Below are positions 10,630 through 61,275 of a DNA stretch of 64,000 nucleotides, piece after piece (within the stretch, counting starts at the first letter, position 1; each line of letters opens with the position of its first letter). The stretch comes from an uncultured virus (IMG/VR IMGVR_UViG_3300046616_000175) (Duplodnaviria > Heunggongvirae > Uroviricota > Caudoviricetes), in the IMG/VR virus record IMGVR_UViG_3300046616_000175. The stretch is one strand, 5' to 3'. Under the pieces are notes generated by a model, which was not told the DNA's origin, searched no databases, and saw only the letters and a program-made list of their open reading frames with translations. Position numbers and translations under genes: made by a program.

Positions 10630-11424
10630 ATGATCAACATCACCGTTGAGCAGATCAGCGCCGCAGCCGACAACGACCTGAACGCCATCACCGAGGTACT
10701 TGCCGCGCTTGAGCCCCGCATCGGGCAGCTTGCCTACAAGCACTCGACCAACGCCGACATGGCGGAGGACATGGCGCAGATTGGCCGGATCCGCGCTTGG
10801 AAGTGCCTCGAGACCTTCCAGGGCAGCACGGTCGGTGAGTTCTTCGCGTACGTCGACAAGTACGTGAGCGGCGACATGAGCGCCCACCGGCGTACCGAGA
10901 CGCGCCAGGGCGTGAGCCCCTCGACGGCCAGCCGGTTTGAGCGCTGCCTGTCGGAGTGCGGAGGTGACCCGTACGCCGCTGAGCGTGAAGCCACCCGCAC
11001 GGACGGGATCCTTGGCCGCGAGGCGCTGTCTCAGGACATGGCAAACGCTGCGCGGCTGTCGTGGCAGGGCTCCGCGTACCTCGACGGCCCGGCCACCGCC
11101 GACGGAATCTCGCTGGGCGACTTGCTCGCTGACACGCTGGGGGTGCCTGTAGACCTGCTGGAGGCCGCTGACATCGATCGTGAGCGCCGTCGGGTCATCA
11201 GGGACCAGGTGCACGCCACACTGGCTCGTATGGGCCGTCAGCAGGCTTTCGTGCTCCGCGCTACCTACGGGATCGAGCCGGTCCCCCACATGGAACGCGA
11301 CAGCGAGATAGCGGAGGCGCTGGGAATCCTCGACTCCCGCGTCACCGTGATCCGCCACAAGGCCAAGGCGCGGTTCCGTGAGCTCTACCTGATCGGCGCG
11401 AACGCGTTCGAGATCGCCGCGTAA
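10630..11424 (+). CDS. Phage sigma-factor-like transcription activator
   Basis: Region-2-like AEDMAQIG..W and C-terminal HTH (EIAEALGI..SRV); follows DNA pol as in phiC31. Confidence 0.75.
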   Translation: MINITVEQISAAADNDLNAITEVLAALEPRIGQLAYKHSTNADMAEDMAQIGRIRAWKCLETFQGSTVGEFFAYVDKYVSGDMSAHRRTETRQGVSPSTASRFERCLSECGGDPYAAEREATRTDGILGREALSQDMANAARLSWQGSAYLDGPATADGISLGDLLADTLGVPVDLLEAADIDRERRRVIRDQVHATLARMGRQQAFVLRATYGIEPVPHMERDSEIAEALGILDSRVTVIRHKAKARFRELYLIGANAFEIAA

Positions 11425-16332: not shown

Positions 16333-16536
16333 ATGATCACTAGATACGCAGTAACCAGGGTCCCGAGCACGGGTAGTTGGGGCATCCTCGACCGACACAT
16401 GCGAGCGTTCTGCACGCTGGCAGGCGAGGCGCTGGAGTGGACAGCGCAAGCGGGCGCGGAGTCATGGATGTACCGGTGCCGCGTCGCATGGCGCAGTGAG
16501 TTCGTACCGGCGCCGGACGGGTGGAACGGCCGCTAG
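16333..16536 (+). CDS. Hypothetical protein, probably leaderless
   Basis: TATGCT 6 nt before ATG. Confidence 0.6.
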   Translation: MITRYAVTRVPSTGSWGILDRHMRAFCTLAGEALEWTAQAGAESWMYRCRVAWRSEFVPAPDGWNGR

Positions 16537-16541
16537 GGGTG

Positions 16542-16595
16542 CATGTCCTCAAGAGTGGACACGTTCCTGGGAACGCGGCTAGCCTTGAGGACATG
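16542..16595. other. attP of phage A (54 bp, central TG at 16568-16569)
   Basis: CATGTCCTCAAG/CTTGAGGACATG arms, inner GTTCC-TG-GGAAC, abuts integrase start. Confidence 0.85.
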
Positions 16596-17993
16596 AGAAC
16601 CTCCACCGGCACCACCGGACGCACCCAAGTAGCGATCTACATCCGACTCAGCCGCGAGACCGCCGAATCGGCCTCCGTCGACACCCAGCGCGCCGCAGCG
16701 CTTACCTGGCTCAAGGCCAACGGTTTTGCCGACGCCGACATAACAGAGTACGTCGATTCCGGAGTATCCGGCGCTAAGGCGCTGGAGGACCGACAGCGGA
16801 TGCGTCAGCTAATGCGCGACCGGCCCAACGTGATCATTGCGTGGAAACTCGACCGGTACGCCCGCAGCGTGAGCGAATTCCTCCGGCTGGTCGGGTGGGG
16901 CGAGGCTCACAATGTGCGCTTGGCCACCACAGACAATGTCGTGAACACGACGACTCCCACCGGGCGCATGGTCGCGGTTGTTCTCGCCGCACTGGCCGAA
17001 TGGGAACGCGAAATGATTAAAGGCCGAATTCTCGACGGTCACGCCACCCGACGCACACAAGGACGCTGGATATCCGGCAATGCTCCATTCGGATACCGAA
17101 TTGAGCGGCGAGACGGAGCGGCGTATCTCGCCATTGATGAGGAGCAGGCAGAGCAAGTTCGCGCCGCCGTACGCTCACTCATCAACGATGACGACGGCAC
17201 GGTAGCCAGCACATCGCGCATGCTCGGAATTGGTGAGCGACAGTGGCGACGCATGCTCAAGTCCCCCAATCTCCGGGGACAGCGCGAGCACAAAGGCCAA
17301 TTGATCGTGGCGGAGGACGGGATTACGCCGGTCCATTTCGCGGAGCCCATCATCACAGCGGCGGAAGCCAAGGCCGTACGCGAGCGGCTGAACGCGCTGG
17401 CGACCGGCAAGGACCGTGCGCCGCGCAAGGCTGCCCCTCTGTGCGCTGGCCTGGCTTTCTGCGCCGTCTGTGACGGGCGAGTGAACGGCGGAAAGCTCCG
17501 CAATGGCGTAGCCCGCTACCGGTGCAAGACCGGCCACGTATCCATCACTGCCGAGCACGTAGACCGCGCGGTCGAGGCTGAATTCAGGAAGCGTTTCGGG
17601 TTGGTCGATGAATACGTCGTGCGGCTGGAGGGTGGCAACGACATGAGCGAGGCAATGGCGGAAGCACAGGAGAAAGCGGACCGCATCGCGACACAGATGG
17701 CTTCGGCCGGTCCGCTCATGCTGGCCACGCTCAACGAGAAAGCGGCCGAGCTGGAGGCCGCGTACGCCGCTCTAAAGGCCGCGCATGACCCTGACGTACG
17801 GGAAGTGCTGGAGCCGACCGGCAGGACGCTGGGGGAGGCGTGGGACAGCGACCCGGGGGTACGTACGGGCCTACTGGGGGACCTAGGCCTGACAGTCGTG
17901 GTGTCGACCAAGGCGCACGCGGAGCGGCTGGAGATCAGTTGGGCCAGCGGCGGGGAGGACTACGCGCTGACTGAATACCTTGAGGACATGTGA
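16593..17993 (+). CDS. int: Large serine integrase
   Basis: YIRLS catalytic motif, DSGVSG, WKLDR, LAEWERE, CAVC Zn ribbon. Confidence 0.95.
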   Translation: MRTSTGTTGRTQVAIYIRLSRETAESASVDTQRAAALTWLKANGFADADITEYVDSGVSGAKALEDRQRMRQLMRDRPNVIIAWKLDRYARSVSEFLRLVGWGEAHNVRLATTDNVVNTTTPTGRMVAVVLAALAEWEREMIKGRILDGHATRRTQGRWISGNAPFGYRIERRDGAAYLAIDEEQAEQVRAAVRSLINDDDGTVASTSRMLGIGERQWRRMLKSPNLRGQREHKGQLIVAEDGITPVHFAEPIITAAEAKAVRERLNALATGKDRAPRKAAPLCAGLAFCAVCDGRVNGGKLRNGVARYRCKTGHVSITAEHVDRAVEAEFRKRFGLVDEYVVRLEGGNDMSEAMAEAQEKADRIATQMASAGPLMLATLNEKAAELEAAYAALKAAHDPDVREVLEPTGRTLGEAWDSDPGVRTGLLGDLGLTVVVSTKAHAERLEISWASGGEDYALTEYLEDM

Positions 17994-18020
17994 CCCGCAC
18001 CACTTAGGTGAACCTAACCA

Positions 18021-18058
18021 AGGCCCCGGTGACCACAACGGATACCGGGGCTTTCTCA
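18021..18058 (+). terminator. Terminator after integrase
   Basis: AGGCCCCGGT...ACCGGGGCTT followed by TCTC. Confidence 0.65.
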
Positions 18059-18070
18059 TGCGCCCACAAA

Positions 18071-18096
18071 GTTATCCACAGGCGCCTGTGGATAAC
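18071..18096. promoter_or_regulatory. Inverted pair of DnaA boxes
   Basis: TTATCCACA and TGTGGATAA within a perfect 26-bp palindrome. Confidence 0.6.
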
Positions 18097-18161
18097 TCCG
18101 TCACGGCAGGTGGTGAAACGGCGCGATGCGCAACGCTCTGACCAGCGGGAATGCCGACCGC

Positions 18162-18250
18162 GTGACGGTTGAGCCCCCGGTCTCTGTTACTTGGTTATGT
18201 ACGTAACAGCAATACAGAACTCAGACCCCGAAACACCACTACCGCCACGG
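18162..18250. other. Degenerate second copy of origin-like element (A, copy 2)
   Basis: AGCAATACAGAA...GACCCC...CACCACTA.CGCCACGG matches 204-245. Confidence 0.5.
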
Positions 18251-18356
18251 CGGACCCCTTGCGCTGTACCGACAAGCCTTTGCCAATCCGTTACGTAGCA
18301 CCTCTTGCTTTTCCCGCGTGATCCGTCTCGCGGAGGGTGTGTCCGACACCTAGTAA

Positions 18357-18474
18357 GGGTGAGGCGGGAATACCGCGCACCCCAATCGGTCAAGCGACCC
18401 TGTGGCGGACCGTGTACCCCCTCGACTGGCCAGCCTGCTCCCGTCCCTCTCCCGACGGTTGAGCGAGGCTGGCC
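18357..18474 (+). ncRNA. Conserved two-hairpin structured RNA (late leader)
   Basis: Covaries with 61077-61194; loop CCTCTCCC. Confidence 0.65.
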
Positions 18475-18478
18475 GCAT

Positions 18479-18563
18479 GCCGCATTAGCTCAGTCTGGTA
18501 GAGCGCCCCCGCCATGGGCCCATGGGTGTGGGGAAGTCCTTGGTTCAATTCCTGGATGCGGCA
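18479..18563 (+). ncRNA. tRNA-like RNA with expanded anticodon arm
   Basis: 7-bp acceptor, canonical D arm, T arm; about 12 extra nt with CCATGG-GC-CCATGG. Confidence 0.7.
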
Positions 18564-18625
18564 CGGAGCGTGAGACATATGCGGGGCATGCACTCCCCGG
18601 GCACTGGAAGACAGTGGCTCTTACG

Positions 18626-18699
18626 CAACGGCGAATAGCTCAAGGGTAGAGCGTCCGGCAAGGGCCGGAAGACTGCTGGTTCGATTCCGGCGCCGTCGA
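18626..18699 (+). ncRNA. tRNA-like RNA with shrunken anticodon loop
   Basis: TAGCTCAAGGGTAGAGC D arm, TCCGGC-AAGG-GCCGGA, GGTTCGATTCC. Confidence 0.65.
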
Positions 18700-18774
18700 C
18701 GGCGGATCCTGCGGAAACCCTTACTCCGCTCGGGTGGCGCAGGCCATGGTCGTAGTAGGCGACTCCCGCGATAA

Positions 18775-18843
18775 TGCCCTCAGCGTATGGAGCGCACTCC
18801 GGCTGCAAACTGGAGTGGTCGGGTTCAAGACCCGCGTTGGCAG
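18775..18843 (+). tRNA. Degenerate tRNA-Cys(GCA)-like
   Basis: Loop CTGCAAA in 5-bp stem, T loop TTCAAGA, mismatched acceptor. Confidence 0.5.
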
Positions 18844-18962
18844 CGTAGGTGCAAAGACGACCCCTTGACCGGGGCTCCTCAGTCTCCGCGCACCTTGGGT
18901 GAAACCGGCCCTGCCTCCCTGGCTAGTCACCAGCGGAGCGGGCGGCGAGTAACCCTAAATCT

Positions 18963-19026
18963 TGCTTCGCGCGTGAGTTGGTGGACTCAGGTCATGGCTC
19001 CGGTTCGATGCCGGGCGTGCGAAGCA
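18963..19026 (+). ncRNA. tRNA-like RNA lacking an anticodon arm
   Basis: 11-bp closing stem, TGAGT-TGGTGG-ACTCA arm, TCCGG-TTCGATG-CCGGG arm. Confidence 0.6.
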
Positions 19027-19031
19027 GAATC

Positions 19032-19094
19032 TTCCCGCTGGTGTAAGCAGCACACCCCGTCAAGGGGAAGTCCGGCACGCAATCCGGGCGGGTC
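19032..19094 (+). ncRNA. Degenerate tRNA-like RNA with 5-nt anticodon loop
   Basis: CCCGC/GCGGG, TGGTGTAAGCAGCAC D arm, CCCC-GTCAA-GGGG, CCGG/CCGG arm. Confidence 0.5.
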
Positions 19095-19098
19095 GCCA

Positions 19099-19171
19099 TG
19101 GCATGTAGCTCAATCGGTAGAGCGCCGGATTGTTAATCCGGGTGTTGCTGGTTCGAATCCAGCCGTGCCAG
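19099..19171 (+). tRNA. tRNA-Asn(GTT)
   Basis: Canonical cloverleaf, loop TTGTTAA; CCA not encoded. Confidence 0.92.
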
Positions 19172-19205
19172 CAAGCGAGTAAATTTACCCGCCACGATCG
19201 GAGGC

Positions 19206-19493
19206 TTGATGGCTGCCTGTGAAGCATGCGGATCGTCTGCTCTGGTCCAGTGGCGACGGCGCCCTAGCGAAGCTGAGCTAGAGGCAATTCCCGGCGAACC
19301 GGATCCGCAAAGCACCATGGCCGTTTATGCGTGCGGTTCGCATGCTATTACTGCTGACCTTGCTTCGCTGGTTCATGGCGCTGCCTGTAGTGGTCCGGCG
19401 TCTAATGCGCTGCCGAATTGCGATTGCACGCCCGAGCCTAGGCCGGAGCCTGCTCCTGATCCTGTGGCTTCCCTGCTGCCCCCTGGGTGGTAG
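19206..19493 (+). CDS. Cys-rich hypothetical protein
   Basis: RBS GGAGG; CxxC, CxC motifs. Confidence 0.6.
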   Translation: MMAACEACGSSALVQWRRRPSEAELEAIPGEPDPQSTMAVYACGSHAITADLASLVHGAACSGPASNALPNCDCTPEPRPEPAPDPVASLLPPGW

Positions 19494-19495
19494 GG

Positions 19496-19834
19496 GTGGC
19501 TAGGCGACCGTGCCTTAAGTGTGGGCGGCTGACTGCTAACGCATCACGCTGTGATGTACATCAGGCTGAGTACATGGCCCAGCGCAATGCGGTACGTGGC
19601 AGTGCTCACCAGCGTGGCTACACCAGTAGGTACAGAGCAGTAGCAGGCAGTGTGGTAGCAGAGCATCGAGGCAGGCATGGTGACTGGTGTCCGGGGCACG
19701 GGGTCCCGGCGCACGCGAGTAGGGATCTCACTGTGGATCACGTCGTGCCGCTGGCCAAGGGTGGCACTCACGACCGTGCCAACCTCACCGTGCTGTGTCG
19801 CGGCTGCAATTCGCGGAAGCGTGACAGGGCGTAA
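19496..19834 (+). CDS. Packaging-associated HNH endonuclease
   Basis: RGY, DHVVPLAKGG, LCRGCNSRK; immediately before cos/terS. Confidence 0.9.
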   Translation: MARRPCLKCGRLTANASRCDVHQAEYMAQRNAVRGSAHQRGYTSRYRAVAGSVVAEHRGRHGDWCPGHGVPAHASRDLTVDHVVPLAKGGTHDRANLTVLCRGCNSRKRDRA

Positions 19835-19914
19835 GCGTTAGCGCTGCTGGCCTGCCTCGCTGTGACTGCATGGACATGCATCCTCGCTCGACCTGCCTTG
19901 CATATGTATGCATA

Positions 19915-19970
19915 GGGGGGCGGGGTAAATCTCCAGAGCATGATCCTTCCCGGACCCGGCCCCCATGGCT
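19915..19970. other. Candidate cos site
   Basis: G-run, then CCCGGCCCCC (19955-19964), between HNH and terS. Confidence 0.45.
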
Positions 19971-20059
19971 CCGCGCATCGCTGCGAAATTCTGACCCCCG
20001 GGGTCTGGTCCTTTTACGCGCCGGAAGCGCATGAATACGCAGAAATCGGGGGTGGCCGC

Positions 20060-20527
20060 ATGCCTGCTGGTCGTCCGCCGGTGCCTGCGGAGCGTAAGCG
20101 CAAACTCGGCAACCCTGGCGCGCGCCCTCTGCCCGATGCTGGCTCGGTTCACGCCGTGCAGCCCGTTACGCAGAGTGCGCCCGCGCAGCTCGGTTCCGCT
20201 GGCGCTGAGATGTTCCGCCGGATCGTCGACGGCGCTGCCTGGCTGGCCGAGACCGATAAGCCAACGCTCGAATTGCTCTGCGAAAAGGTCGACCGCCGCG
20301 AGGCGATGAAAGCCCAGCTGTCGCGCAGCGAGCTAGTCCTCTTCACGGACAAAATGTACGCGTACCCCAACCCGCTGGTCGGCATGCTCTCGACGATCGA
20401 AACCGAGATTGCCAAGCTATTCAGCGCGCTGGGGCTCACGCCGACTGACCGCACCCGTATGGGGCTCGCGGAGGTTAAGGCGCGGAACGCGTTTGAAGAC
20501 TTCCTAGCCAAAAAGGCAGGGCAGTAA
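20060..20527 (+). CDS. terS: Terminase small subunit (P27 family)
   Basis: GRPP, GNPG.RPL, NP, LGLTP.DR. Confidence 0.9.
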   Translation: MPAGRPPVPAERKRKLGNPGARPLPDAGSVHAVQPVTQSAPAQLGSAGAEMFRRIVDGAAWLAETDKPTLELLCEKVDRREAMKAQLSRSELVLFTDKMYAYPNPLVGMLSTIETEIAKLFSALGLTPTDRTRMGLAEVKARNAFEDFLAKKAGQ

Positions 20528-20548
20528 ATTTACGACCCTGGGGGACGC

Positions 20549-20743
20549 ATGCGCTGTTGGTTCCGCAGGCTACTGCACAGGGCACACATTCGCCGCTCTC
20601 CCTCGCTGGCGCTGCTGGACGCGGTAAAGGACATCGACTGGTCCGACATCGCCGATGCAATGGCCGTGTACGAGACTGCCTTCCGCGTGGAAGATGGCCC
20701 GGCGATCCTGGCGTGGTACGAGGCTCGGGAGGCTCGCGGGTGA
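20549..20743 (+). CDS. Hypothetical protein between terS and terL
   Basis: GTGA overlap with terL. Confidence 0.55.
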   Translation: MRCWFRRLLHRAHIRRSPSLALLDAVKDIDWSDIADAMAVYETAFRVEDGPAILAWYEAREARG

Positions 20744-22254
20744 GCACTCCCTATCTGCTCACGCCAGTGCCTCCGGCGGACATCGAGCGTGGCGACGGTG
20801 ACAGCTTCGTTGGCTTCGCTGAAAGCTTCCTGCGCATCACCAAGGATTCCGTCGGCGGCGACAGCGGCTCTCTGCTGGTCTTCCGGGAGTGGCAGCGGGA
20901 ACTCATGCGCCAACTGTTCGCGAGGCGCCCGGACGGCCGTTACAGGCACCGTCAGGCGCTCATTGGCATGCCGCGTAAGAATGGTAAGTCGGCAGTCGGC
21001 GCGGCCATCGCCATTTATGGGCTGGTTTCCGGTCCGCGCGGTGGCGAGGTCTATTCGATCGCTGCCGACAAGGAACAGGCGCGCATCGTTTTCGGTACGG
21101 CCAAGAAAATGATCGAGATGGCGCCGGAGATGGCGAACTCTTTCAATGTCTACCGGGACGCCATCGAGCTACCGGCGACCGGGTCCGTTTACCGCGTGCT
21201 GTCGGCGGAAGCCTTCACCAAGGAAGGTCTTAACCCTCACCTGACGATCGCCGATGAGGTTCACGCACAGCCGACCCGTGAGCTCTGGGACGTCATGTCG
21301 CTGGCTTCTGGCGCCCGTGTCGAGCCGATGATGATCGGCATCACTACCGCTGGCGTGAAGACTGACTCGACCGGCGGCGATTCGCTGTGCTATGGCATGT
21401 ACCAGTATGGCGAGAAGATCGTTCGGGGCGAGATCGACGATCCCGCATTCTTCTTTTCTTGGTGGGGTGCGCCGGAAGGTGCCGATCATCGAGACCCGGC
21501 GGTATGGGCCAGTGCCAATCCTGGTTTCAACGACATTGTCTCCGCCGAGGATTTCCACTCATCGGTTCTCCGAACCCCGGAGGCGGAGTACCGAACCAAG
21601 CGACTCAACCAGTGGGTGTCAACGGCGCAAGCCTGGCTGCCTGCTGGCGCATGGGACGAGTGCGAGGCTGGCCAGCCGATACCGGACGGCGCCGATGTGG
21701 TGCTCGGTTTCGATGGCTCGTTTAACAACGACTCGACGGCGCTGGTAGTGGTCTCTTGCCCACAGGGCGAGGATGACAAGCCGTATGTCGACGTCGTGGC
21801 GGCATGGGAAAAACCGTCCGACGCGGGCAATGAGTGGTCGGTCCCGATTTTCGATGTTGAGGACGAAATCCGTAAGGCTTGCCGACGCTGGCAGGTGAGG
21901 GAGATTGTCTGTGACCCGTTCCGCTGGGCTCGCACCTATCAGATTTTGGAGGCCGAGGGGCTTCCGATTGTGGAGTTCCCGCAGTCTCCCGCGCGAATGG
22001 TTCCGGCGACGCAGCGTTTCTACGAGGCGGTACTCAATAAGACTGTCGAGCACTCCGGCGACCCGCGTCTAGCGCGCCATCTGTCGAACTGTGTGCTTCG
22101 CACGGACTCTCGCGGCTCGCGGCTGTCCAAGGACGCTAAGGGTTCGCCTCGCAAAATCGACCTTGCCGTTTCCGCTGTCATGGCGCTGGAGCGTGCTTGC
22201 CAGGAACCGGAGGCCGAACCCATACCCCAATTCTTCAGTTGGGCTGATCTGTAA
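20740..22254 (+). CDS. terL: Terminase large subunit
   Basis: PRKNGKS, DEVH, ITTAG, GFDGS, KIDLAV. Confidence 0.95.
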   Translation: MSTPYLLTPVPPADIERGDGDSFVGFAESFLRITKDSVGGDSGSLLVFREWQRELMRQLFARRPDGRYRHRQALIGMPRKNGKSAVGAAIAIYGLVSGPRGGEVYSIAADKEQARIVFGTAKKMIEMAPEMANSFNVYRDAIELPATGSVYRVLSAEAFTKEGLNPHLTIADEVHAQPTRELWDVMSLASGARVEPMMIGITTAGVKTDSTGGDSLCYGMYQYGEKIVRGEIDDPAFFFSWWGAPEGADHRDPAVWASANPGFNDIVSAEDFHSSVLRTPEAEYRTKRLNQWVSTAQAWLPAGAWDECEAGQPIPDGADVVLGFDGSFNNDSTALVVVSCPQGEDDKPYVDVVAAWEKPSDAGNEWSVPIFDVEDEIRKACRRWQVREIVCDPFRWARTYQILEAEGLPIVEFPQSPARMVPATQRFYEAVLNKTVEHSGDPRLARHLSNCVLRTDSRGSRLSKDAKGSPRKIDLAVSAVMALERACQEPEAEPIPQFFSWADL

Positions 22255-22264
22255 GGGACCGAAT

Positions 22265-22426
22265 ATGAGGCGACCCAATCGGCGCACGGTGGCCGAGCTT
22301 GCCGACGTTCTAGGTATCGGGGCACTTGTCGGCGCCGGTTGGGTGTGGAGTTCCATTCTCGGTCTGGCGCTGGCTGGCGTTGGCCTACTGGTGATTGGCG
22401 CGGTGGTCGACAATGAGCATGCTTAA
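22265..22426 (+). CDS. Small membrane protein
   Basis: Two hydrophobic segments, between terL and portal. Confidence 0.65.
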   Translation: MRRPNRRTVAELADVLGIGALVGAGWVWSSILGLALAGVGLLVIGAVVDNEHA

Positions 22427-23663
22427 GCGTGCGGCTGGCTCCGCGAAGCGTTTCTATGCGCCGTCCGGTGCTGGCGACCCGTGGGCGATTCCGTCGAATG
22501 GCTCGCTCGCTGGCTACACAGCATCTGGCGTTCCGGTGAACGATGAGACGGCTATGCAACTTATGGCTGTGTCAGCGTGTGTCCGGCTGCTCAGCGATGC
22601 GGTAAGCGGGCTCCCGCTCGATGCGGTGCGTGCCAAGGGGGAGATCCGGGAAACCATCGAGCCTCCGCCCGGCATCATCGCCGACCCGTTTGGCCGTGCA
22701 GCGTCGAATGCTCGACCTACGCGCCGTGAGGGGTTGGCGCAATTGATGGTGTCGCTATTGCTGCGGGGCAACGCGTACTGTCTGGTGATCGGGTGGGACC
22801 CCTACGGGCGGCCGACCATGCTCCGCGTGCTGCACCCGGACCGCGTGGATTGCGAGTTTGACGCGGAGGGGCAGCGGGCGTACAAGATCGATCGCCAGCC
22901 GGTTGACGCTCAAAGCGTTGTGCATATCCGGGGCATGAGCCTTCCGGAGTCGCCCACCGGCATGAGTGTGATTTCGTACGCGCGGCAGTCCATCGGGCTC
23001 GGTCTCGCTGCGGAGGAATTCGGCGCGAGGTTCTTCGGCGAAGGCGCGCACATGACTGGCGTTGTCGAGATCGAGGCTGACCTAGACATCGAACGCGCGC
23101 GGGGCATCAAAGAGAATTTCTCTGCCTCGCACGCTGGTCTCAAGAACTCTCACACGGTCGGCGTGCTCACTGGCGGTGCTAAGTGGAAGCCAATCAGCGT
23201 CACGCCGGAAGATGCTCAGTTCCTCGGTACGCGTGCCGCGCAGAATCTCGACATTGCCATGTTGTTCGGCGTGCCGCCGCACATGCTTGGCCAGGTCGAC
23301 AAGACAACCTCTTGGGGTACGGGCATCGAGCAGCAGGGCCTAGGGTTCCTGGCTTACACGCTGTCGGCGTGGCTGGGCCGTTTCGAGGATGCTTGGTCAT
23401 GCATGTTGCCGCGCACTCAGACCGCCGTTTTCAATGCTGACGCGCTACTGCGCACGGACACGGCCGGTAGGTACGCGGTCTATACGGCAGCGCGCTCGAC
23501 CGGAATTCTCACCACCAACGAGATTCGTGCGCTGGAGAACTATGCGCCGGTTGATGGTGGCGACAATATCGCTGCTCCGCTTAATTCGTCGGCGCCAAAG
23601 ATGAAAGACAACGAAGCGTCACCAACGGCGCCGAAGGCAGATGCATTGGGGGCCGTACTGTGA
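22413..23663 (+). CDS. HK97-family portal protein
   Basis: LLLRGNAY, LHPDRV, DAQFL, FGVPP, NEIRALEN. Confidence 0.93.
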   Translation: MSMLKRAAGSAKRFYAPSGAGDPWAIPSNGSLAGYTASGVPVNDETAMQLMAVSACVRLLSDAVSGLPLDAVRAKGEIRETIEPPPGIIADPFGRAASNARPTRREGLAQLMVSLLLRGNAYCLVIGWDPYGRPTMLRVLHPDRVDCEFDAEGQRAYKIDRQPVDAQSVVHIRGMSLPESPTGMSVISYARQSIGLGLAAEEFGARFFGEGAHMTGVVEIEADLDIERARGIKENFSASHAGLKNSHTVGVLTGGAKWKPISVTPEDAQFLGTRAAQNLDIAMLFGVPPHMLGQVDKTTSWGTGIEQQGLGFLAYTLSAWLGRFEDAWSCMLPRTQTAVFNADALLRTDTAGRYAVYTAARSTGILTTNEIRALENYAPVDGGDNIAAPLNSSAPKMKDNEASPTAPKADALGAVL

Positions 23664-24376
23664 CCGACCTTTCTAGCCGTAGTCAGCGGCGTAACGTCCG
23701 TGAGGACCGCAACCGGCCCTTTGAGGGTATGGAGCTACGCGAGGTGGACAACGGCTCCGGGGGCACGACCCTACGGTTTACCGGGTACGCCAGCGTGACG
23801 GAAACGCCGTACGAAATGACTGACTGGCTGGGTGACTATTCCGAGGTTATCCGGCGCGGCTCGTTTTCCAAGACTCTCGCTGAGGGCGCGGATGTCCCGT
23901 TCAAGCTCAACCACGATGGTATGACGCTGGCGCGGACCAAGAGCGGCACTATGCGGCTGGCCGAGGATTCCACGGGGCTGCACGTCGAGGCTGACCTAGA
24001 CCCGCGCAACGGGCAAGTTGCCGACATTCGCAGCGCGATGGACCGGGGTGACCTCGATGAGATGTCATTTGCGTTCCGCGTGACCCGTCAGGAGTGGTCT
24101 CCCGACTGGACGCAGCGAGACATTACCGAGGTGAACCTCAACAAGGGGGATGTCTCGATCGTCAACTACGGTGCCAACCCACACACGGCGGGGCTCACCT
24201 CGCTACGGTCCGCACTGACTGACGGGACACTCTCCCGTGGTCGACTTGAGGAAATGCTCCGCGCTGCTGGCTATGAGCTTGCGCCGGAGGTTGACGGCAT
24301 GCATGCCGTTGATGATGCCAAGCGCAGCGAGGATCTTTCGCTGTATGAGGCGCGACTCCGCGCGCTCAATCTCTAA
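23660..24376 (+). CDS. Prohead protease (HK97 family)
   Basis: FTGYASV, LNHD, MSFAF, VSIV. Confidence 0.92.
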   Translation: MTDLSSRSQRRNVREDRNRPFEGMELREVDNGSGGTTLRFTGYASVTETPYEMTDWLGDYSEVIRRGSFSKTLAEGADVPFKLNHDGMTLARTKSGTMRLAEDSTGLHVEADLDPRNGQVADIRSAMDRGDLDEMSFAFRVTRQEWSPDWTQRDITEVNLNKGDVSIVNYGANPHTAGLTSLRSALTDGTLSRGRLEEMLRAAGYELAPEVDGMHAVDDAKRSEDLSLYEARLRALNL

Positions 24377-24528
24377 CCTTCGCTAGTGGGTAAATTTACC
24401 CGCTGGCTGCCCGCCCGGTTTACGCCGGAGCCTACGCCGGATCCCTTGCTACACGGGACACCACCTAGGCCACCACCTAACGCAAGTGGTGGGCGATTCG
24501 CAAGAATCCACCCTAGGAAAGGTCCCTA

Positions 24529-25872
24529 ATGGATAAGCGTTCCCTTATTGCTGATCTCGTGGCCAAGCGTTCCGTCGAGCGCACCAAGCTGGACGGCATT
24601 CTCGGTGAGGCTCGCGGCACTGGCAGCGGTGATCTCACCGAGGACCAGCGTTCGGCCTTCGATGCTGGCGAGACTGAGATTCGCGCGCTCGATGAGCGTA
24701 TTGCCGAGCTTGACGCGCAGGTCCGCGCCGATGAGGCGGCGAAGGAAATCGAAAAGCGTTACGCGCCGAAGGCTGGCGATGGTGTCCAGTCGGAGCCGGA
24801 GATCTACCGCTCTGGTCTCGGCGGTAACTCATACTTCCGCGACATGTGGAATTCGCGCCAGAACGGCGACACTGCCGCGATGGATCGTCTGGTCCGCAAC
24901 AACCGGGGCCGTGCAGCTGAGCAGCGTGCGCTTACCACGGTTAACGGCGCTGGTGGCGAATTCGTGCCGCCTCTGTGGCTTGAGCGGGAATTCGTTCGCC
25001 TCGCGCGTCCGGGCCGCATTACCGCGAACCTGGTCCCGACCAGTGCGCTTCCGGCGGGGACCGACTCGATTAACGTCCCGAAGGTTTCGACCGGTACGGC
25101 CGTCGCGGTGCAGGGTACCCAGAACACTGCGGTGCAGAATACCGACCTTGCCACCACGTCGATTTCGTCCACTGTGACGACTATCGCGGGTGGCCAGACC
25201 GTGTCTCTCCAGCTCATCGAGCAGAGCCCCCTGAACGTCGACGACGTGATCCTGTCCGATCTCGCTGGCGCCTATGCCCAGCAGTACAACACGCTGATTC
25301 TGTCTGGCTCCGGCACCGGTGGTAACCCCACTGGCATGCTGACGCTGGCTGGCACGAACGCGATCACGTACACGTCTGGCTCGCCGACTGTCGCGCTTCT
25401 GTACTCGCAGATTGCGAACGCGATCCAGACCGTGCACACAAACCGATTCCTGCCGCCGGACACGATCATCATGCATCCGCGCCGGTGGGCTTACCTGCTG
25501 GCCGCGTCTGACACCACTGGCCGCCCGCTGGTGACTCCGTCGGCGAACTCTCCGATGAACGCCGTTGGCAATCAGGGGGATGTCGCGTCTCAGGGTTACG
25601 TGGGCACCATTCAGGGCCTGCCGGTCTACGTCGATTCGCTGCTTCCGACCAACCTCGGCGCTGGTACCAACCAGGACCCGATCATCGTTGCTCGCATGGC
25701 TGACCTCATGGCGTGGGAGGGCAACGTCAAGGCAGAGGCCTTCCCTCAGACGTACGCGAACCAGCTGTCTGTGTTCGTCCGGCTGTACAACTACATGTCC
25801 TTCCAGCCTGCTCGGTACCCGAAGTCGATCTCGGTCATCAACGGCACGGGTCTCGTTGCCCCGACCTTCTAG
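24529..25872 (+). CDS. Major capsid protein
   Basis: N-terminal coiled-coil scaffold, GGEFVPP, IIMHP, GLPV. Confidence 0.92.
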   Translation: MDKRSLIADLVAKRSVERTKLDGILGEARGTGSGDLTEDQRSAFDAGETEIRALDERIAELDAQVRADEAAKEIEKRYAPKAGDGVQSEPEIYRSGLGGNSYFRDMWNSRQNGDTAAMDRLVRNNRGRAAEQRALTTVNGAGGEFVPPLWLEREFVRLARPGRITANLVPTSALPAGTDSINVPKVSTGTAVAVQGTQNTAVQNTDLATTSISSTVTTIAGGQTVSLQLIEQSPLNVDDVILSDLAGAYAQQYNTLILSGSGTGGNPTGMLTLAGTNAITYTSGSPTVALLYSQIANAIQTVHTNRFLPPDTIIMHPRRWAYLLAASDTTGRPLVTPSANSPMNAVGNQGDVASQGYVGTIQGLPVYVDSLLPTNLGAGTNQDPIIVARMADLMAWEGNVKAEAFPQTYANQLSVFVRLYNYMSFQPARYPKSISVINGTGLVAPTF

Positions 25873-25948
25873 TCTGACGACCCCGTGACGGTCGGGGGTG
25901 GGTCGTAAATTTACTACCTGCCTCCGGCCGTTTGGCTGAGAGGAATTC

Positions 25949-26197
25949 ATGAACCCCATCAATTACGCGAACGGTCTCGTGACCGAGCTTGGTTTCGCGC
26001 GGCAGGACAAGGATAAGGGTCGCGAGGCTGGCGTACGCGAACAGCTCACGTGGGTTGCTGGCGAGCTAGGCAAGGTCGAGCCCCTCGGCGACGACACCAG
26101 GACGTTCCTGGAAGATGCCGTGTCTGCCGTGGCCGATGCGCTGGCCAACAAGCCTAAGCGGGCTCCTAAGTCTGCCGTTGACGCACCTACGGAGTAG
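25949..26197 (+). CDS. Hypothetical protein
   Basis: RBS GAGAGG, follows capsid gene. Confidence 0.7.
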   Translation: MNPINYANGLVTELGFARQDKDKGREAGVREQLTWVAGELGKVEPLGDDTRTFLEDAVSAVADALANKPKRAPKSAVDAPTE

Positions 26198-26202
26198 CCA
26201 TC

Positions 26203-27093
26203 ATGCCGCTGATCTACTTCACTGGGCAGGATGTAGCGCTTACAGCTAACCCGCTCGACGACAGCGGCAGCCCCGTGCAAGGCGCTGTGAGCGTCTCTCT
26301 GGCCGTCACAGACCCGGCCGGGGCCGTCACCTCACCCGTGACCTCTGGGCCCGTCTCAGGGGCGTACACGGCCGTCGTGCCTAGCGTGGCAACCGCCGGT
26401 ATCTGGCTGGCTCGCTGGACGGCTACCGGCACGGGCGTGCGCTGGGTTTCTGAGACTCAGTTCCAAGTGCGCGCCGCAGGCGTCGAGCAACTCGTGGACC
26501 TCCCGAGCGTCAAGGCTCACCTGAACATCCCACCCAACGACACTCGCCAGGATGACGAACTACAGGGTTTCATCCTCGCTGCGGCGGAGATTGCCCGTAA
26601 TCACTGTGGCCCGTTCGTCCCTGAAACGCACACGCAGTATTTCGACGGCGGGCGCTCGACGATCGTTCCGGATTTCACCCCGATCACCAGCGTTCTCAGC
26701 GCCACGGAGTATTACGGGCTTTCGGCCTTTCCGCTGACTGAGCAACCGCTGAGCGGGCAGGTGAGCGCGTTTGGGTTCACTGTCGACTACGCCACGGGGC
26801 AGATCACCCGGCGGACGTTCGGGGGCGAGGCGGCGATTTTCGCCTATGGCTCCAAGAACATCAAGGTCGTGTACACGGCCGGTCGCGCTGGCGCCGTCCC
26901 ATGGTCCGCGAGACTCGGCGTGCTCGAACTCATCCGACACCTGTGGCAGATGACTCAACAGGGCGGTGGTCGGCCCAAATTCAACGGCGGCGGCTATGAC
27001 GGCGGGGAAGGCATGGTGCCTACTGGCTTCGCCATTCCGTCCCGCGTGCTGGAGCTGTGGCAGCCGTACTACCGGGGACCGGGGATCGCATGA
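26203..27093 (+). CDS. Head-tail adaptor with N-terminal beta-rich extension
   Basis: VKAHLNI...DDEL, VYTAG; position. Confidence 0.7.
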   Translation: MPLIYFTGQDVALTANPLDDSGSPVQGAVSVSLAVTDPAGAVTSPVTSGPVSGAYTAVVPSVATAGIWLARWTATGTGVRWVSETQFQVRAAGVEQLVDLPSVKAHLNIPPNDTRQDDELQGFILAAAEIARNHCGPFVPETHTQYFDGGRSTIVPDFTPITSVLSATEYYGLSAFPLTEQPLSGQVSAFGFTVDYATGQITRRTFGGEAAIFAYGSKNIKVVYTAGRAGAVPWSARLGVLELIRHLWQMTQQGGGRPKFNGGGYDGGEGMVPTGFAIPSRVLELWQPYYRGPGIA

Positions 27094-27557
27094 GTATCCC
27101 TAGCTCGACGGCGCCAGCGGTTCGGCAGTGGCTCTTCGACCAGTTCACCGCGAGCCTCGCGCCCGACCCGGTGAACACTCATGCCTCCCTGCTGGTGTGT
27201 TTCGACCAGCCCGGGCCGAATGAGCCTGACGACATTGTGGCCGTCGGCAAGGTGCGGCGACAGCTACATGTCGCGGCCATGGTCGGCGGCGGTGGCGCTG
27301 GCTGGCTCGATGAGGCATACACGGTCGAAATCGTCATTGACGTGTTCCGGGGCGCCGACAGCGGCCAAGTGGCTTACTCCCGCGCAATGGACCTGGCTAA
27401 CGCCGTGGTCGCCATCGTGCGCGCTGATCTGACGCTTGGTGGCCACGTAATCCGCGCGCTGCCCAAGGGTGATGACGCGGAGGTTGGCTGGGATACCGAG
27501 CACGGCGGAAAGCTCGCGACGGTAACTGTCGAAATCGAATGCGTTACGAGGATTTGA
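27090..27557 (+). CDS. Neck or tail terminator-like protein
   Basis: Position before major tail gene. Confidence 0.55.
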   Translation: MSIPSSTAPAVRQWLFDQFTASLAPDPVNTHASLLVCFDQPGPNEPDDIVAVGKVRRQLHVAAMVGGGGAGWLDEAYTVEIVIDVFRGADSGQVAYSRAMDLANAVVAIVRADLTLGGHVIRALPKGDDAEVGWDTEHGGKLATVTVEIECVTRI

Positions 27558-27742
27558 TGCCTGACTTCACTTACAGCGGCGAGGACGTCCGCTATTACCC
27601 GTCACTCTCGCTGAGCGTTGCTCCGGGCGACACGGTGACTCTTGATTCCGACCCTGGTGACGGCCGTTTCATCGCCAAGGGTTCCCGCAAGTCCGTTCCG
27701 GCTCCGGCGCCGACGGATGACACTCCGGAGGTTGGCCAGTAA
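27557..27742 (+). CDS. Hypothetical protein
   Basis: TGATG and TAATG coupling. Confidence 0.65.
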   Translation: MPDFTYSGEDVRYYPSLSLSVAPGDTVTLDSDPGDGRFIAKGSRKSVPAPAPTDDTPEVGQ

Positions 27743-29840: not shown

Positions 29841-29848
29841 ATTTACCC

Positions 29849-33247: not shown

Positions 33248-33302
33248 CCGAGCCTGGGGATGGTGGGTAAATTTACCCACCATCCCCTCTTGCGGAGGGA
33301 AC

Positions 33303-36913: not shown

Positions 36914-36923
36914 GGAGTCACAT

Positions 36924-38895: not shown

Positions 38896-39164
38896 CACCC
38901 ACCCCCTGTCACTGGCCTCGCGGCTGGCTGGCAGGGGGTCTCTACGTATGCGCTGCGGGTAAATTTACCCACCGGATGGACGGTGGGCACGATCTTGTGG
39001 TTGAGTACCTCCCGCAAGGTCAACTACAGCGGAGGGGCAGGGCATGGCGCACTCGGCCGTAGGTGGGCAGTGCTTGACGCCTAGTGGGTAAATTTACCCA
39101 CTAGCTTTACAACGGGGCGCCGGAGCCGATAGTCTGGCGCCCCACCACAACACAGGGAGAGACC

Positions 39165-40289
39165 ATGGCAGCGAAGAACACCACCCAGGAAACCGCGCCG
39201 ACCGCCACGGAGGAAATCGACACCACCCTCGCGGACGTGCTCGATGAGGCGCCGGAGGTCGACCCGACGCAGGCCACCATGGAACAGATCGCGGCCAACG
39301 TCGAGCGCGCCCGGTCGCTGGCAGAGGCTGAGAACGTCGAGGGTCTCGCGGCACTGGACAAGGAAACCAAGGCGCTCATCTCGTCGCTGCCTCGCGGCGG
39401 TAAGACTCCCGACGGTAAGACGTGGGCGGGATTCAAGGCCAAGGCTGGGCAGGACTTCCGGCAGGCGGCTGCGGCACAGCCCAAGCCCGACGCTCCCAAG
39501 GCCAAGGCGGCTGCTAAGGCTGCGGAGCTGGAGGTCAAGGCCAAGGCTGACGCGGAGGCCGCCGACTACAGCACGGTCGATGGCGTCACGGACCGTGTGA
39601 ACGCTGGCGCCAGCCTGATCTATGACGGCGCCCACGGGCTCGTGAGGACGGCGCAGACAGCGCGGCAGGCGGCCGAAATGCTGCTCGACGCCCAGCGGCT
39701 CATCATCACCAAGGATGGCGTGCCGGACCTCAAGTGTGCCGACCCTAAGTCCATCGCCGCCCGAAAGGACATGTACGCCAAGGCCAAGGAATTGCTGACG
39801 CCGGAGGGTGGCGAGGAGCACGCCGATTCGCTGGTAAAGAAGTTTGGCACGTCCGTCCGTAATCAGATGTCCGATGTGCTGCGCGGCTACATCCGCGAGC
39901 TGGACACGGAGGCTGGCCGCGAGGAATACGAAAAGTACTACGCGCCGGTCGCTGCCGCTCACCCCGACCTTTCGCCCAGCGAGGCTGTCCATGAGTTCTA
40001 CGAAATCCCCAAGCTGAGCAAGCGCGAGCTTATGAACGCCCGAAACGCTGCCAAGGCTGCCAAGCTCGCGGAGCTTGAGGCCAAGGTCGAGGAAGGGGAC
40101 GAGACAGCGGCGGAGCAGGTGCAGGAAATCAAGGCCAAGTCGGCGCAAGACCGGATCGTCGAGGACATCACCAAGGCCGAGGAATTTATCCAGAACGCCA
40201 TCAAGTCCGCGCGCTCGCTGTCCGACGACGACAAGGCGGCCGTCAAGGGCAAGATTGCGGAACTGGCTCTGCTGGCCGCGCAGCTCTAA
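39165..40289 (+). CDS. Probable immunity repressor (phiC31 c position)
   Basis: Lies between dNMP kinase and early region with two operators upstream; function inferred from synteny. Confidence 0.55.
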   Translation: MAAKNTTQETAPTATEEIDTTLADVLDEAPEVDPTQATMEQIAANVERARSLAEAENVEGLAALDKETKALISSLPRGGKTPDGKTWAGFKAKAGQDFRQAAAAQPKPDAPKAKAAAKAAELEVKAKADAEAADYSTVDGVTDRVNAGASLIYDGAHGLVRTAQTARQAAEMLLDAQRLIITKDGVPDLKCADPKSIAARKDMYAKAKELLTPEGGEEHADSLVKKFGTSVRNQMSDVLRGYIRELDTEAGREEYEKYYAPVAAAHPDLSPSEAVHEFYEIPKLSKRELMNARNAAKAAKLAELEAKVEEGDETAAEQVQEIKAKSAQDRIVEDITKAEEFIQNAIKSARSLSDDDKAAVKGKIAELALLAAQL

Positions 40290-61076: not shown

Positions 61077-61194
61077 GGTGAGTGAGAGAGGGATTCCCGC
61101 GCACTCGACAACCGGCGGACCGAGGCCCCTCACTCACCCCGTACGCGCTCCCATATGGTGCCTCTCCCGCCCTATGGTTCCGAGCCGTACGGGG
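61077..61194 (+). ncRNA. Conserved two-hairpin structured RNA (late leader)
   Basis: Covaries with 18357-18474. Confidence 0.65.
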
Positions 61195-61197: not shown

Positions 61198-61270
61198 TGT
61201 CCACTAGCTCAAGTGGCAGAGCACCCGGTTGTTACCCGGGCGGTTCCTGGTTCGAATCCAGGGCGGACAG
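61198..61270 (+). tRNA. tRNA-Asn(GTT)
   Basis: Cloverleaf, loop TTGTTAC, one acceptor mismatch. Confidence 0.88.
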
Positions 61271-61275
61271 CGCAA

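What the first reader, a model, noticed from the sequence alone, without database searches (positions are those of the whole stretch)
18357..18474. Candidate novel structured RNA with covarying stems and an invariant anti-SD loop
Seen in both phages (B: 61077-61194) between the late promoter and first tRNA. Hairpin 1 keeps CCGCGCAC...GGCGGACCG. Hairpin 2 has an outer stem fully changed but paired (GGCCAGCCT/AGGCTGGCC versus CCCCGTACG/CGTACGGGG), conserved GCTC/GAGC, a TT bulge and identical loop CCTCTCCC; a tRNA-like 5' end follows 3-4 nt later. The loop is complementary to GGGAGAG, the RBS of the putative repressor (39155-39161), and nearly to its own 5' strand. Inference: an RNase P-released sRNA silencing the repressor or RBSs, or a late-operon antitermination switch. 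I do not recognise it as a known family.
Basis: partly seen in the sequence, partly recalled or inferred. Interest (0 to 1): 0.8.

Follow-up and report, generated by a model that had tools for sequence, protein, structure and literature searches.

The report
Folded leader RNA of phiC31-type phages
Streptomyces phages of the phiC31 type start their late transcript with a conserved, folded RNA of about 120 bases that sits directly in front of the phage tRNA genes; no RNA catalogue lists it, and its near-invariant loop matches the ribosome-binding site of the phage repressor gene, so it may help the phage commit to killing its host.

Summary
Both copies (18358-18474 and 61078-61193, + strand) belong to a family of 46 distinct sequences found here. 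Members include phiC31, phiBT1, Rowa, IMG/VR contigs and Streptomyces prophages.

- **Structure:** two domains, 31 base pairs. 93.2% of cells pair and 26 of 31 pairs show compensatory changes. No shuffle (0/500) and no slid control comes close.
- **No known family:** Rfam gives no hit, even at E<=10.
- **Position:** the element starts just after the late lytic promoter that GenBank annotates in phiC31. In 38 of 46 members it ends 2-7 nt before a tRNA of any identity.
- **Loop and repressor:** The 8-mer GGGAGAGA precedes the short-form repressor start in 6 of 6 phages first checked. At least 7 contiguous pairs with the loop occur in 21 of 35 phages. In phiC31 and phiBT1 the 8-mer occurs once on the sense strand, at that site. 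However, a test that shuffled loops among phages showed no covariation (497/2000), and two phages that lost the loop kept the site.

Best reading (about 0.4): RNase P frees the leader as a stable RNA that blocks repressor, and some early-gene, translation. The main rival is a put-like antiterminator RNA acting on its own transcript. No RNA data were available. The family appears undescribed.

The parts
18340..18357 (+). Late-promoter core of copy A (TGTCCGACACCTAGTAAG-type block, an AT-rich -10-like element just before P1)
   Evidence: A block of the form CCGAC..C(T)AG(A)TA sits directly 5' of the element in most members. In phiC31 record X91149.1 the same position carries the annotated 'promoter, late lytic' feature at 174-194. 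For the window the assignment rests on homology; the start site was not measured.
18358..18427 (+). Domain 1 of copy A. Helix P1 (GGTGAGG-C-GGG / CCC-CCTC-G-ACT) encloses the near-invariant CCGCGCA and GGCGGACCG, joined by a CGC/GCG helix and a variable inner hairpin.
   Evidence: Fold. All 8 P1 pairs show changes on both sides, and the CGC/GCG pairs are 45-46 of 46 invariant. Column consensus.
18428..18474 (+). Hairpin 2 of copy A: outer stem GGCCAGCCT/AGGCTGGCC, GCTC/GAGC, CCGTC/GACGG, and a TT bulge on the 3' side
   Evidence: Of the 16 pairs in helices 4-6, 14 carry compensatory changes and 93.6-98.7% of cells pair.
18446..18453 (+). Apical loop CCTCTCCC of copy A. The family consensus is CUCUCUCC.
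   Evidence: Column consensus cuCUCuCC. The reverse complement GGGAGAG maps to 18447-18453.
18479..18564 (+). First tRNA of the array after copy A (86 nt; called Trp, anticodon CCA). Its 5' end is the presumed RNase P cut that would form the leader's 3' end.
   Evidence: ARAGORN; Rfam tRNA at 46 bits. 38 of 46 members abut a tRNA in this way.
61078..61137 (+). Domain 1 of copy B. P1 (GTGAGTGAG/CTCACTCAC) encloses CCCGCGCAC and GGCGGACCG.
   Evidence: Model R2 hit at 61079-61198: 59.8 bits, E = 4e-9.
61138..61193 (+). Hairpin 2 of copy B, the long form with an extra inner stem. The loop CCTCTCCC lies at 61161-61168 and the bulge is TTCC.
   Evidence: The complement GGGAGAG maps to 61162-61168.
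61198..61271 (+). tRNA-Asn(GTT) directly after copy B
39155..39162 (+). GGGAGAGA, the ribosome-binding site of the repressor gene and the candidate target of the loop
   Evidence: The same 8-mer lies in front of the repressor start in 6 of 6 phages first checked.
39165..40289 (+). phiC31-type repressor c gene (374 aa; corresponds to the shorter reading frame that starts inside the long phiC31 c ORF)
   Evidence: Pfam PF25746, E = 3.6e-40. Its N-terminus aligns with the internal start of phiC31 c, whose long ORF spans 19274-21325 with the RBS at 20161.

Best explanation
The element is the 5' leader of the late, tRNA-led transcript of phiC31-type Streptomyces phages. I propose it is made as a discrete, stable RNA of about 115-125 nt.

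Proposed biogenesis:
- Transcription starts at the late promoter, so the first bases of the transcript form the 5' strand of helix P1.
- RNase P cuts at the 5' end of the adjoining tRNA. This leaves hairpin 2 plus a tail of 2-7 nt as the 3' end.

Proposed action:
- The released RNA uses its near-invariant CU-rich loop (UCUCUCCC) to pair with the Shine-Dalgarno sequence GGGAGAGA of the short repressor form.
- In some phages it would also pair with a few early genes that carry the same site.
- Pairing would block their translation once late transcription is running, reinforcing the lytic decision and shutting off early functions.

Shown here: the fold, its conservation, its position, and the complementarity. 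Inferred: the start site in the window, the RNase P release, the stability of the RNA, and the pairing and its effect.
For: (1) The fold is real and conserved. 46 distinct members; 26 of 31 pairs have compensatory changes; 93.2% of cells pair; 0 of 500 shuffles reach the observed score; slid controls fall far below. U-G pairs fit the + strand only, for example U-G in 24 sequences at pair 21-83.

(2) The ends look like those of a processed, stable RNA.
- The promoter block abuts P1 in all members listed. GenBank X91149.1 places the phiC31 late promoter at 174-194, with the element at about 198-310 and the tRNA-Thr at 311.
- Hairpin 2 ends 2-7 nt before a tRNA in 38 of 46 members, whatever the tRNA: Asp, Asn, Trp, Lys, Thr, Phe, His, Val, Ile, Arg, Pro, Tyr, Cys.

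(3) Loop and repressor RBS.
- GGGAGAGA precedes the repressor start in 6 of 6 phages first checked, amid diverged flanks. Three of those repressors are only 31-41% identical to the window's.
- At least 7 contiguous Watson-Crick pairs between loop and the 22 nt before the start occur in 21 of 35 phages.
- GGGAGAGA occurs once on the sense strand of phiC31 and once on that of phiBT1, in both cases at this site.
- In L100 two changes in the loop (CUUCUCC) are matched by two in the RBS (GGAGAAG).
- The predicted loop-RBS duplex averages -14.0 kcal/mol, against -9.2 for the 16S 3' tail with the same site. The loop is the stronger partner in 30 of 34 phages.

(4) All 12 sense-strand GGGAGAG sites in phiC31 (2), phiBT1 (1), Rowa (4) and the window (5) lie in the immunity/early arm and none in the late arm. 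The four in Rowa all sit in front of start codons.

(5) Leader and repressor family travel together. PF25746 is found in 19 of 19 leader-bearing viral records that are at least 90% complete. It is absent from 14 of 15 leader-less relatives that share the terminase.
Against: - No phage-by-phage covariation between loop and RBS. The summed complementarity of true pairs is 219, against 215.6 +/- 4.4 when loops and sites are shuffled among phages; 497 of 2000 shuffles reach the observed value.
- 14 of 35 phages have 6 pairs or fewer. L014, L066, L097 and L032 have a standard loop but a non-matching RBS.
- L050 and L053 lost the CU loop yet keep AGGAGAGA and GGGGAGAC.
- A genome with a PF25746 repressor but no detected leader also has GGGGAGA. 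The RBS may therefore be conserved for reasons of its own.
- I chose the start codons by Shine-Dalgarno score and fixed two by hand. This favours purine-rich sites.
- The association in evidence point 5 may simply reflect common descent of one phage module.
- The strongly conserved internal loop of domain 1 (CCGCGCA / GGCGGACYG) has no role in this model.
- 8 of 46 members do not abut a detected tRNA.
- No RNA data exist for expression, ends or abundance.
Confidence: 0.4

Rival explanations
1. A processive antiterminator RNA of the HK022 put type, acting on its own transcript. The nascent two-domain leader would fold just behind the late promoter, bind the transcribing RNA polymerase, and make it resistant to pausing and to Rho-dependent or intrinsic termination. 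This would carry the polymerase through the untranslated tRNA array (up to about 1.1 kb in copy A) and the late operon, which in the window runs from about 19.5 kb to 39 kb.
For: - The placement and outline resemble putL: two stem-loop domains immediately downstream of a phage promoter at the head of a long operon. The put description comes from passages of PMC9378689. They say put is about 70 nt with two stem-loops, that putL lies just downstream of PL, and that activity does not depend on tethering through the nascent transcript. An RNase P cut behind the leader therefore would not rule this out.
- The leader is present where a tRNA array separates the promoter from the first ORF. It is absent from all 17 relatives that have a full upstream flank but no tRNAs. 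That would fit a need to protect untranslated RNA from Rho.
- Conserved nucleotides lie in several internal loops as well as the apical loop, as expected for an RNA that docks on a protein surface.
- Earlier notes of this scan report similar unannotated leaders fused to phage tRNAs in enterobacteria (unchecked leads).
Against: - No terminator-like sites beyond chance downstream: 2 found against 3.0 expected for 17900-22300, and 8 against 13.4 for 18480-38400.
- phiC31 keeps the leader although only one 76-nt tRNA separates it from gp29.
- The leader-less relatives have a different genome arrangement upstream of HNH, so their lack of the element is not an informative control.
- This model does not explain the tight 2-7 nt junction with the tRNA or the match to the repressor RBS.
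- The element is 115-125 nt, against about 70 nt for put, with no sequence likeness tested or evident.
Confidence: 0.25
2. A structural or processing leader of the phage tRNA array, or a protein-binding RNA. It would guide or time maturation of the tRNA precursor by RNase P, RNase E, J or III, protect the precursor, or bind or sequester a host or phage protein (for example one that binds pyrimidine-rich loops). It would have no base-pairing target.
For: - Close coupling to tRNAs: 38 of 46 members abut one. Relatives with a full upstream flank but no tRNAs have no leader.
- The conserved internal loop of domain 1 and the conserved UU or UUCU bulge of hairpin 2 look like recognition surfaces rather than antisense seeds.
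- The T4 tRNA cluster likewise encodes small stable RNAs of unknown function (recalled, not checked here).
Against: - Ordinary tRNA arrays, including those inside these same phages, are processed without such a leader.
- L100 and L123 carry the element with no tRNA detected nearby.
- Nothing points to a particular protein.
- This model does not explain why the loop is the complement of the repressor RBS.
Confidence: 0.2
3. Not a functional RNA: a chance hairpin pair, a DNA-level site, or a coding region.
For: A high-GC genome folds readily. Spurious ORFs overlap the region, for example 18337-18462 on the + strand (41 aa).
Against: - Compensatory changes in 26 of 31 pairs across 46 sequences.
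- Insertions and deletions are not in multiples of three.
- U-G pairs are strand-specific.
- Each genome searched whole holds a single copy, always at the same position.
Confidence: 0.02

Closest known systems
C4 antisense RNA of phages P1/P7, and P22 sar and lambda OOP (phage-encoded RNAs that control immunity genes).
   Same: A small, folded, phage-encoded RNA whose exposed loop is complementary to the ribosome-binding region of an immunity-circuit gene. For C4, RNase P takes part in maturation.
   Different: - Here the candidate target is the repressor itself, and the RNA comes from the late lytic promoter.
- RNase P would form the 3' end by cutting an adjoining genuine tRNA.
- The RNA is not encoded antisense to its target, which lies about 20 kb away.
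- There is no sequence likeness, and none of this has been shown experimentally.
HK022 put RNAs (putL/putR), processive antiterminator RNAs that act on their own transcript (passages of PMC9378689)
   Same: Two stem-loop domains placed directly downstream of a phage promoter at the head of a long operon. Conserved unpaired nucleotides.
   Different: - About 120 nt rather than about 70 nt.
- Actinobacterial host.
- No terminators predicted downstream.
- Fused to a tRNA.
- Loop complementary to an RBS.
- Antitermination untested.
6C RNA of Actinobacteria (Rfam RF01066) and other small RNAs with C-rich loops that act without Hfq. Their function is recalled, not checked here.
   Same: A C-rich apical loop on a stable hairpin, as a candidate seed for purine-rich mRNA sites in a high-GC Gram-positive host.
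   Different: No match to any Rfam model, even at E<=10. Different architecture. Phage-borne and tRNA-linked.
Small stable RNAs of the phage T4 tRNA cluster (species 1 and 2).
   Same: Non-tRNA stable RNAs co-transcribed with phage tRNA genes and released by tRNA-processing enzymes.
   Different: Unrelated phage and host, no sequence comparison made, and their function is likewise unknown.

Membership tests
Any Rfam 15 family | Score at or above the family's gathering threshold, or at least a low E-value against a covariance model | tested here: not met
   A gathering-threshold scan of the whole window finds only tRNAs. An E<=10 scan of 18150-19250 gives no match overlapping 18357-18474. Three prophage loci holding the element also give only tRNA and weak tRNA-like hits.
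New family defined here (phiC31-type late leader RNA) | Two-domain fold supported by covariation: P1 enclosing CCGCGCA...GGCGGAC, then hairpin 2 with GCUCC, a CUCUCUCC loop and GGUU(CU)GAGC | tested here: met
   Copy A scores 69.1 bits (E = 6e-11) and copy B 59.8 bits (E = 4e-9) with model R2. Both were in the seed alignment A7, so they match partly by construction. Members outside the seed also match, for example phiC31 at 42.7 bits and L097 at 70.8 bits. Pair statistics.
New family defined here (phiC31-type late leader RNA) | Position: immediately 3' of the late promoter block and abutting the first tRNA, between the integrase gene and HNH/terminase | tested here: met
   Copy A: serine integrase at 16521-17993, HNH at 19487-19834, TerS and TerL downstream, tRNA at 18479. 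Copy B: tRNA at 61198. The order is the same in Rowa, phiBT1 and phiC31.
Trans-acting antisense regulator of an immunity gene (C4 / sar / OOP kind) | Exposed segment complementary to the target's translation-initiation region, conserved across relatives | tested here: inconclusive
   At least 7 contiguous pairs in 21 of 35 phages, and the 8-mer is unique in phiC31 and phiBT1. However, the shuffling test is not significant (497 of 2000), and two loop-less variants keep the RBS.
Trans-acting antisense regulator of an immunity gene (C4 / sar / OOP kind) | Exists as a discrete processed RNA and lowers target expression | not testable with these tools
   No RNA run was listed for the sequence. Northern blot, RACE and reporter assays are needed.
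put-type processive antiterminator RNA | Two stem-loops just downstream of a phage promoter (passages of PMC9378689) | tested here: met
   Folds; promoter adjacency. The likeness is one of outline only. The element is 115-125 nt, against about 70 nt.
put-type processive antiterminator RNA | Suppresses terminators downstream in the same transcript | not testable with these tools
   The only indirect test finds no excess of terminator-like sites downstream. Rho-dependent sites cannot be predicted here.
Intrinsic terminator or attenuator | GC-rich hairpin followed by a U-run | tested here: not met
   The 4 nt after hairpin 2 vary among members (TTTG, TACG, CCAA, GCAT and others). The terminator scan finds none at this site.

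The most novel reading that the evidence does not exclude
phiC31, the model Streptomyces phage, and its relatives encode a regulatory RNA not previously recognised. It would be cut from the head of the late tRNA operon by RNase P. Its invariant anti-Shine-Dalgarno loop would silence translation of the short repressor form and of a small set of early genes that share the GGGAGAGA site. This would be an RNA-based commitment and early-to-late switch in an actinophage, using a tRNA as its 3'-end-forming device.
Probability: 0.35. Interest if true: 0.85.

Novelty: new variant of a known kind. Interest (0 to 1): 0.72.

Why it matters
- **A gap in a well-studied phage.** phiC31 and phiBT1 are workhorses of Streptomyces genetics, and their lysis-lysogeny circuit has been studied for decades. 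Yet this conserved RNA at the head of the late operon carries no annotation in the records I saw. In phiBT1 it is hidden inside an over-long 'tRNA-Lys' feature.
- **If it silences the repressor**, it adds an RNA layer to the circuit. It would also be an actinobacterial case of a regulatory RNA whose 3' end is made by tRNA processing.
- **If it is a put-like antiterminator instead**, it would extend RNA-only antitermination to high-GC Gram-positive bacteria.
- **In either case**, the family (46 sequences, strong covariation) is ready for Rfam and for bench tests. It also bears on the design of phiC31-derived expression tools that use the late promoter.

Tried and rejected
- **RNA evidence:** no RNA holder was listed for window 18150-18750. 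All 17 listed runs are recorded as DNA (marked 'DNA?') rhizosphere metagenomes.
- **Own genome:** the window's assembly is not held.
- **blastn:** the L018-type element found nothing in the phage collection. The phiBT1-type element found only close relatives.
- **Link to host rRNA antitermination or to 16S:** the rrn leader of one Streptomyces genome has none of the conserved blocks. 16S has no exact complement of the 9-nt loop; the best sites pair at 8 of 9 positions with G-U allowed.
- **Terminators downstream:** none beyond chance.
- **Extra helices or a pseudoknot:** a scan of all column pairs found covarying pairs only within the modelled helices, apart from one register shift, 22-84. My by-eye idea that GAGG of domain 1 pairs with the loop is not kept in members with GCGG or GUGG at that place.
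- **K-turn reading of the ACC bulge:** rejected by eye, because the opposite strand lacks the G-A.
- **Loop-RBS covariation:** shuffling was not significant. My first window-based null was uninformative because it included stem bases.
- **GGAGAGAG with up to 1 mismatch:** not enriched in the window; it is in fact rarer than in shuffles (31 against 57.2 +/- 7.8). I draw no conclusion from this.
- **Leader-less terminase relatives as a control:** they have a different arrangement upstream of HNH, so they cannot show a late promoter without a leader.
- **Papers:** Howe & Smith 1996 and Smith et al. 1999 are not held. What I say of them is recalled or taken from GenBank features. Seven full-text searches found no description of this RNA.

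Full report
**What is at the site.**
- Each copy has a first domain holding CCGCGCAC and GGCGGACCG.
- Each has a long second hairpin. Its outer stem differs completely between the copies but stays paired: GGCCAGCCT/AGGCTGGCC in A, CCCCGTACG/CGTACGGGG in B.
- Both keep GCTC/GAGC, a TT bulge and the loop CCTCTCCC.
- Genuine tRNA genes follow 4-5 nt later, at 18479 and 61198.
- Each copy folds into two domains more stably than all 200 shuffles (z = -3.46 and -3.19).
- Rfam has nothing here, even at E<=10.

**Genomic setting.** The window holds about one and a half units of phiC31-like phage genome.
- Copy A lies between a serine integrase gene (16521-17993) and a tRNA array, followed by HNH (19487-19834), TerS and TerL.
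- Streptomyces phages Rowa, phiBT1 and phiC31 have the same order: integrase, gap, tRNA(s), HNH, genome end.
- All three carry the element directly before their first tRNA.
- The old phiC31 'cos region' record X91149.1 annotates a 'late lytic' promoter at 174-194. The element then runs from about 198 to 310 and tRNA-Thr starts at 311.
- Across the family an AT-rich block of the form CCGAC..CTAGATA abuts helix P1.
- The element is therefore the first 115-125 nt of the late transcript. The start site in the window is inferred by homology. I could not read Howe & Smith 1996.

**The family and its fold.**
- I collected relatives through the terminase gene: 78 IMG/VR loci and 9 prophage loci.
- I added a DNA pattern scan (15 of the 80 fetched loci were true members) and a covariance-model search of 151 Streptomyces genomes (7 with one copy each).
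- A seed model built from two sequences was rebuilt from 24.
- The final alignment has 46 distinct sequences.
- On it, 93.2% of cells pair (shuffles 71.2%) and 26 of 31 pairs have compensatory changes. The covariation score is 0.510 (shuffles 0.137; 0 of 500 reach it). Sliding partners by 1-3 columns gives 34-49% pairing and scores of 0.03-0.12.
- The alignment was fitted to the model, which favours the structure. Even so, the same covariation is visible by eye in the raw sequences.
- U-G pairs fit only the + strand.
- The most conserved bases are unpaired or flank helices: CCGCGCA, GGCGG(A/U)CYG, GCUCC, the loop CUCUCUCC, and GGUU(CU)GAGC.
- No further covarying helix or pseudoknot appeared.
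- Each of the five genomes or records searched whole has a single copy.

**Coupling to tRNAs.**
- In 38 of 46 members, hairpin 2 ends 2-7 nt before the first base of a tRNA. The identity of that tRNA varies widely.
- The 8 exceptions have gaps of 58, 58, 76, 104, 116 and 124 nt, or no tRNA nearby (L100, L123).
- Terminase relatives with a full upstream flank but no tRNAs have no element. They also have a different arrangement upstream of HNH, so they are a weak control.
- The junction suggests that RNase P, by cutting at the tRNA 5' end, forms the leader's 3' end. With its 5' end buried in P1 and a strong 3' hairpin, the released RNA would have the look of a stable small RNA. This is inference.

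**The repressor link.**
- That site is the ribosome-binding site of a gene matching Pfam Phage_Repressor_c.
- The 7-mer is not enriched in the window (11 against 10.2 expected). By itself this looked like chance.
- However, the same 8-mer GGGAGAGA precedes the homologous start in Rowa, phiC31, phiBT1 and two IMG/VR phages. The flanks have diverged, and three of those repressors are only 31-41% identical to the window's.
- In phiC31 and phiBT1 the site lies inside the long c ORF, where a shorter reading frame begins. That this frame is the roughly 42 kDa repressor form is recalled from the phiC31 literature.
- GGGAGAGA occurs only once on the sense strand of phiC31 and only once on that of phiBT1.
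- Over 35 phages with both leader and repressor, 21 have at least 7 contiguous Watson-Crick pairs between loop and the 22 nt before the start. Three have 6 and eleven have 5 or fewer.
- In L100 two loop changes are matched by two RBS changes.
- The predicted loop-RBS duplex is stronger than the duplex of the 16S tail with the same RBS in 30 of 34 phages.
- All 12 sense-strand GGGAGAG sites in phiC31, phiBT1, Rowa and the window lie in the immunity/early arm. Rowa's four all precede start codons: the internal start of gp26, then gp27, gp44 and gp53.

**Evidence against the repressor link.**
- Shuffling loops among phages does not lower complementarity significantly (219 against 215.6 +/- 4.4; 497 of 2000). 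This is co-conservation, not covariation.
- L014, L066, L097 and L032 have a standard loop but a non-matching RBS.
- L050 and L053 lost the CU loop but keep AGGAGAGA and GGGGAGAC.
- A genome with a repressor but no detected leader has GGGGAGA.
- I chose the start codons by Shine-Dalgarno score and corrected two by hand.
- The co-occurrence of leader and PF25746 repressor is striking: the repressor is present in 19 of 19 nearly complete leader-bearing records and absent from 14 of 15 leader-less relatives. It may nonetheless simply reflect one inherited module.

**Mechanisms weighed.**
- I rank first (about 0.4) a released leader RNA that blocks translation of the repressor and a few early genes late in infection.
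- Second (about 0.25) is a put-like antiterminator acting on its own transcript. Passages of PMC9378689 corrected my recollection: put does not need its tether to the nascent transcript, so an RNase P cut does not exclude it. Its outline and its placement beside the promoter are alike. No excess of terminators lies downstream, and the tRNA junction and RBS match go unexplained.
- Third (about 0.2) is a processing or protein-binding leader for the tRNA array.
- A non-functional reading is excluded for practical purposes.

**Known or new.** Seven literature searches and Rfam gave no description of this RNA. Much of the older phiC31 literature is not in the library, so an unindexed mention cannot be excluded. 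Earlier notes of this scan report comparable unannotated leaders fused to phage tRNAs in enterobacteria. These are unchecked leads, not support. I file this as a new RNA family, and as a new variant of known kinds of phage regulatory RNA.

Noticed in passing
window 1-64000 (units at about 16.5-18.5 kb and 59.3-61.2 kb): The window holds about 1.5 phiC31-like genome units, 42.7 kb apart. Their integrase, leader and tRNA sets are related but clearly different. One IMG/VR contig of 81.7 kb likewise carries two different terminase/leader units (L011 and L014). This could be tandem prophages or a chimeric assembly.
   Followed up: partly
window 18479-18564, 18629-18700; L015 1875-1947; L005 1715-1791: Odd phage tRNAs: an 86-nt tRNA-Trp with an insert; tRNAs for which ARAGORN- or 4-base anticodons; and a tRNA with anticodon TTA (reads the stop codon UAA) directly after the leader in L015.
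   Followed up: no
window 49213-50163 (homologue at 10639-11283); Rowa gp42; phiC31 about 29952-31067; phiBT1 30570-31652: The early region encodes a protein with Sigma-70 region 2 (Pfam E = 7.8e-6), annotated 'RNA polymerase sigma factor' in Rowa. It is a candidate for the factor that reads the unusual late promoter in front of the leader.
   Followed up: partly
L018, L005, L021, L013, L055, L066 and others, 25-50 nt upstream of the promoter block; phiBT1 L002 about 2300-2320: Direct repeats such as CGTCACTTCGTCAC, CTACACTTCTACAC and CATCGTCACATCGTCAC lie at variable distance upstream of the late promoter in many members. They may be an activator site.
   Followed up: no
window 19177-19191, 39085-39100, about 13875: Copies of a GGTAAATTTACC-type inverted repeat, resembling the phiC31 repressor operators (CIR). 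One lies just after the tRNA array inside the late transcript and one lies upstream of the repressor gene.
   Followed up: no
NC_004664.2 40907-41139 (L002 2408-2640): The phiBT1 GenBank record annotates a 233-nt 'tRNA-Lys' that covers most of the leader as well as the real 74-nt tRNA (ARAGORN 2487-2560 in L002).
   Followed up: yes
window, whole: GGAGAGAG with up to one mismatch is rarer than in shuffles: 31 against 57.2 +/- 7.8, and all 100 shuffles have at least 31. Exact sense-strand GGGAGAG sites are confined to the immunity/early arms.
   Followed up: partly
window 50211-50281: Rfam calls a tRNA (40.7 bits) in the early region next to the sigma-like gene. ARAGORN does not report it.
   Followed up: no
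L053 about 1900-2050: A divergent form of the leader precedes an 8-tRNA array. Its loop is UUUU, and it keeps the TT bulge and a CGCGCC...GGCGGTAC core. Model R2 missed it.
   Followed up: partly
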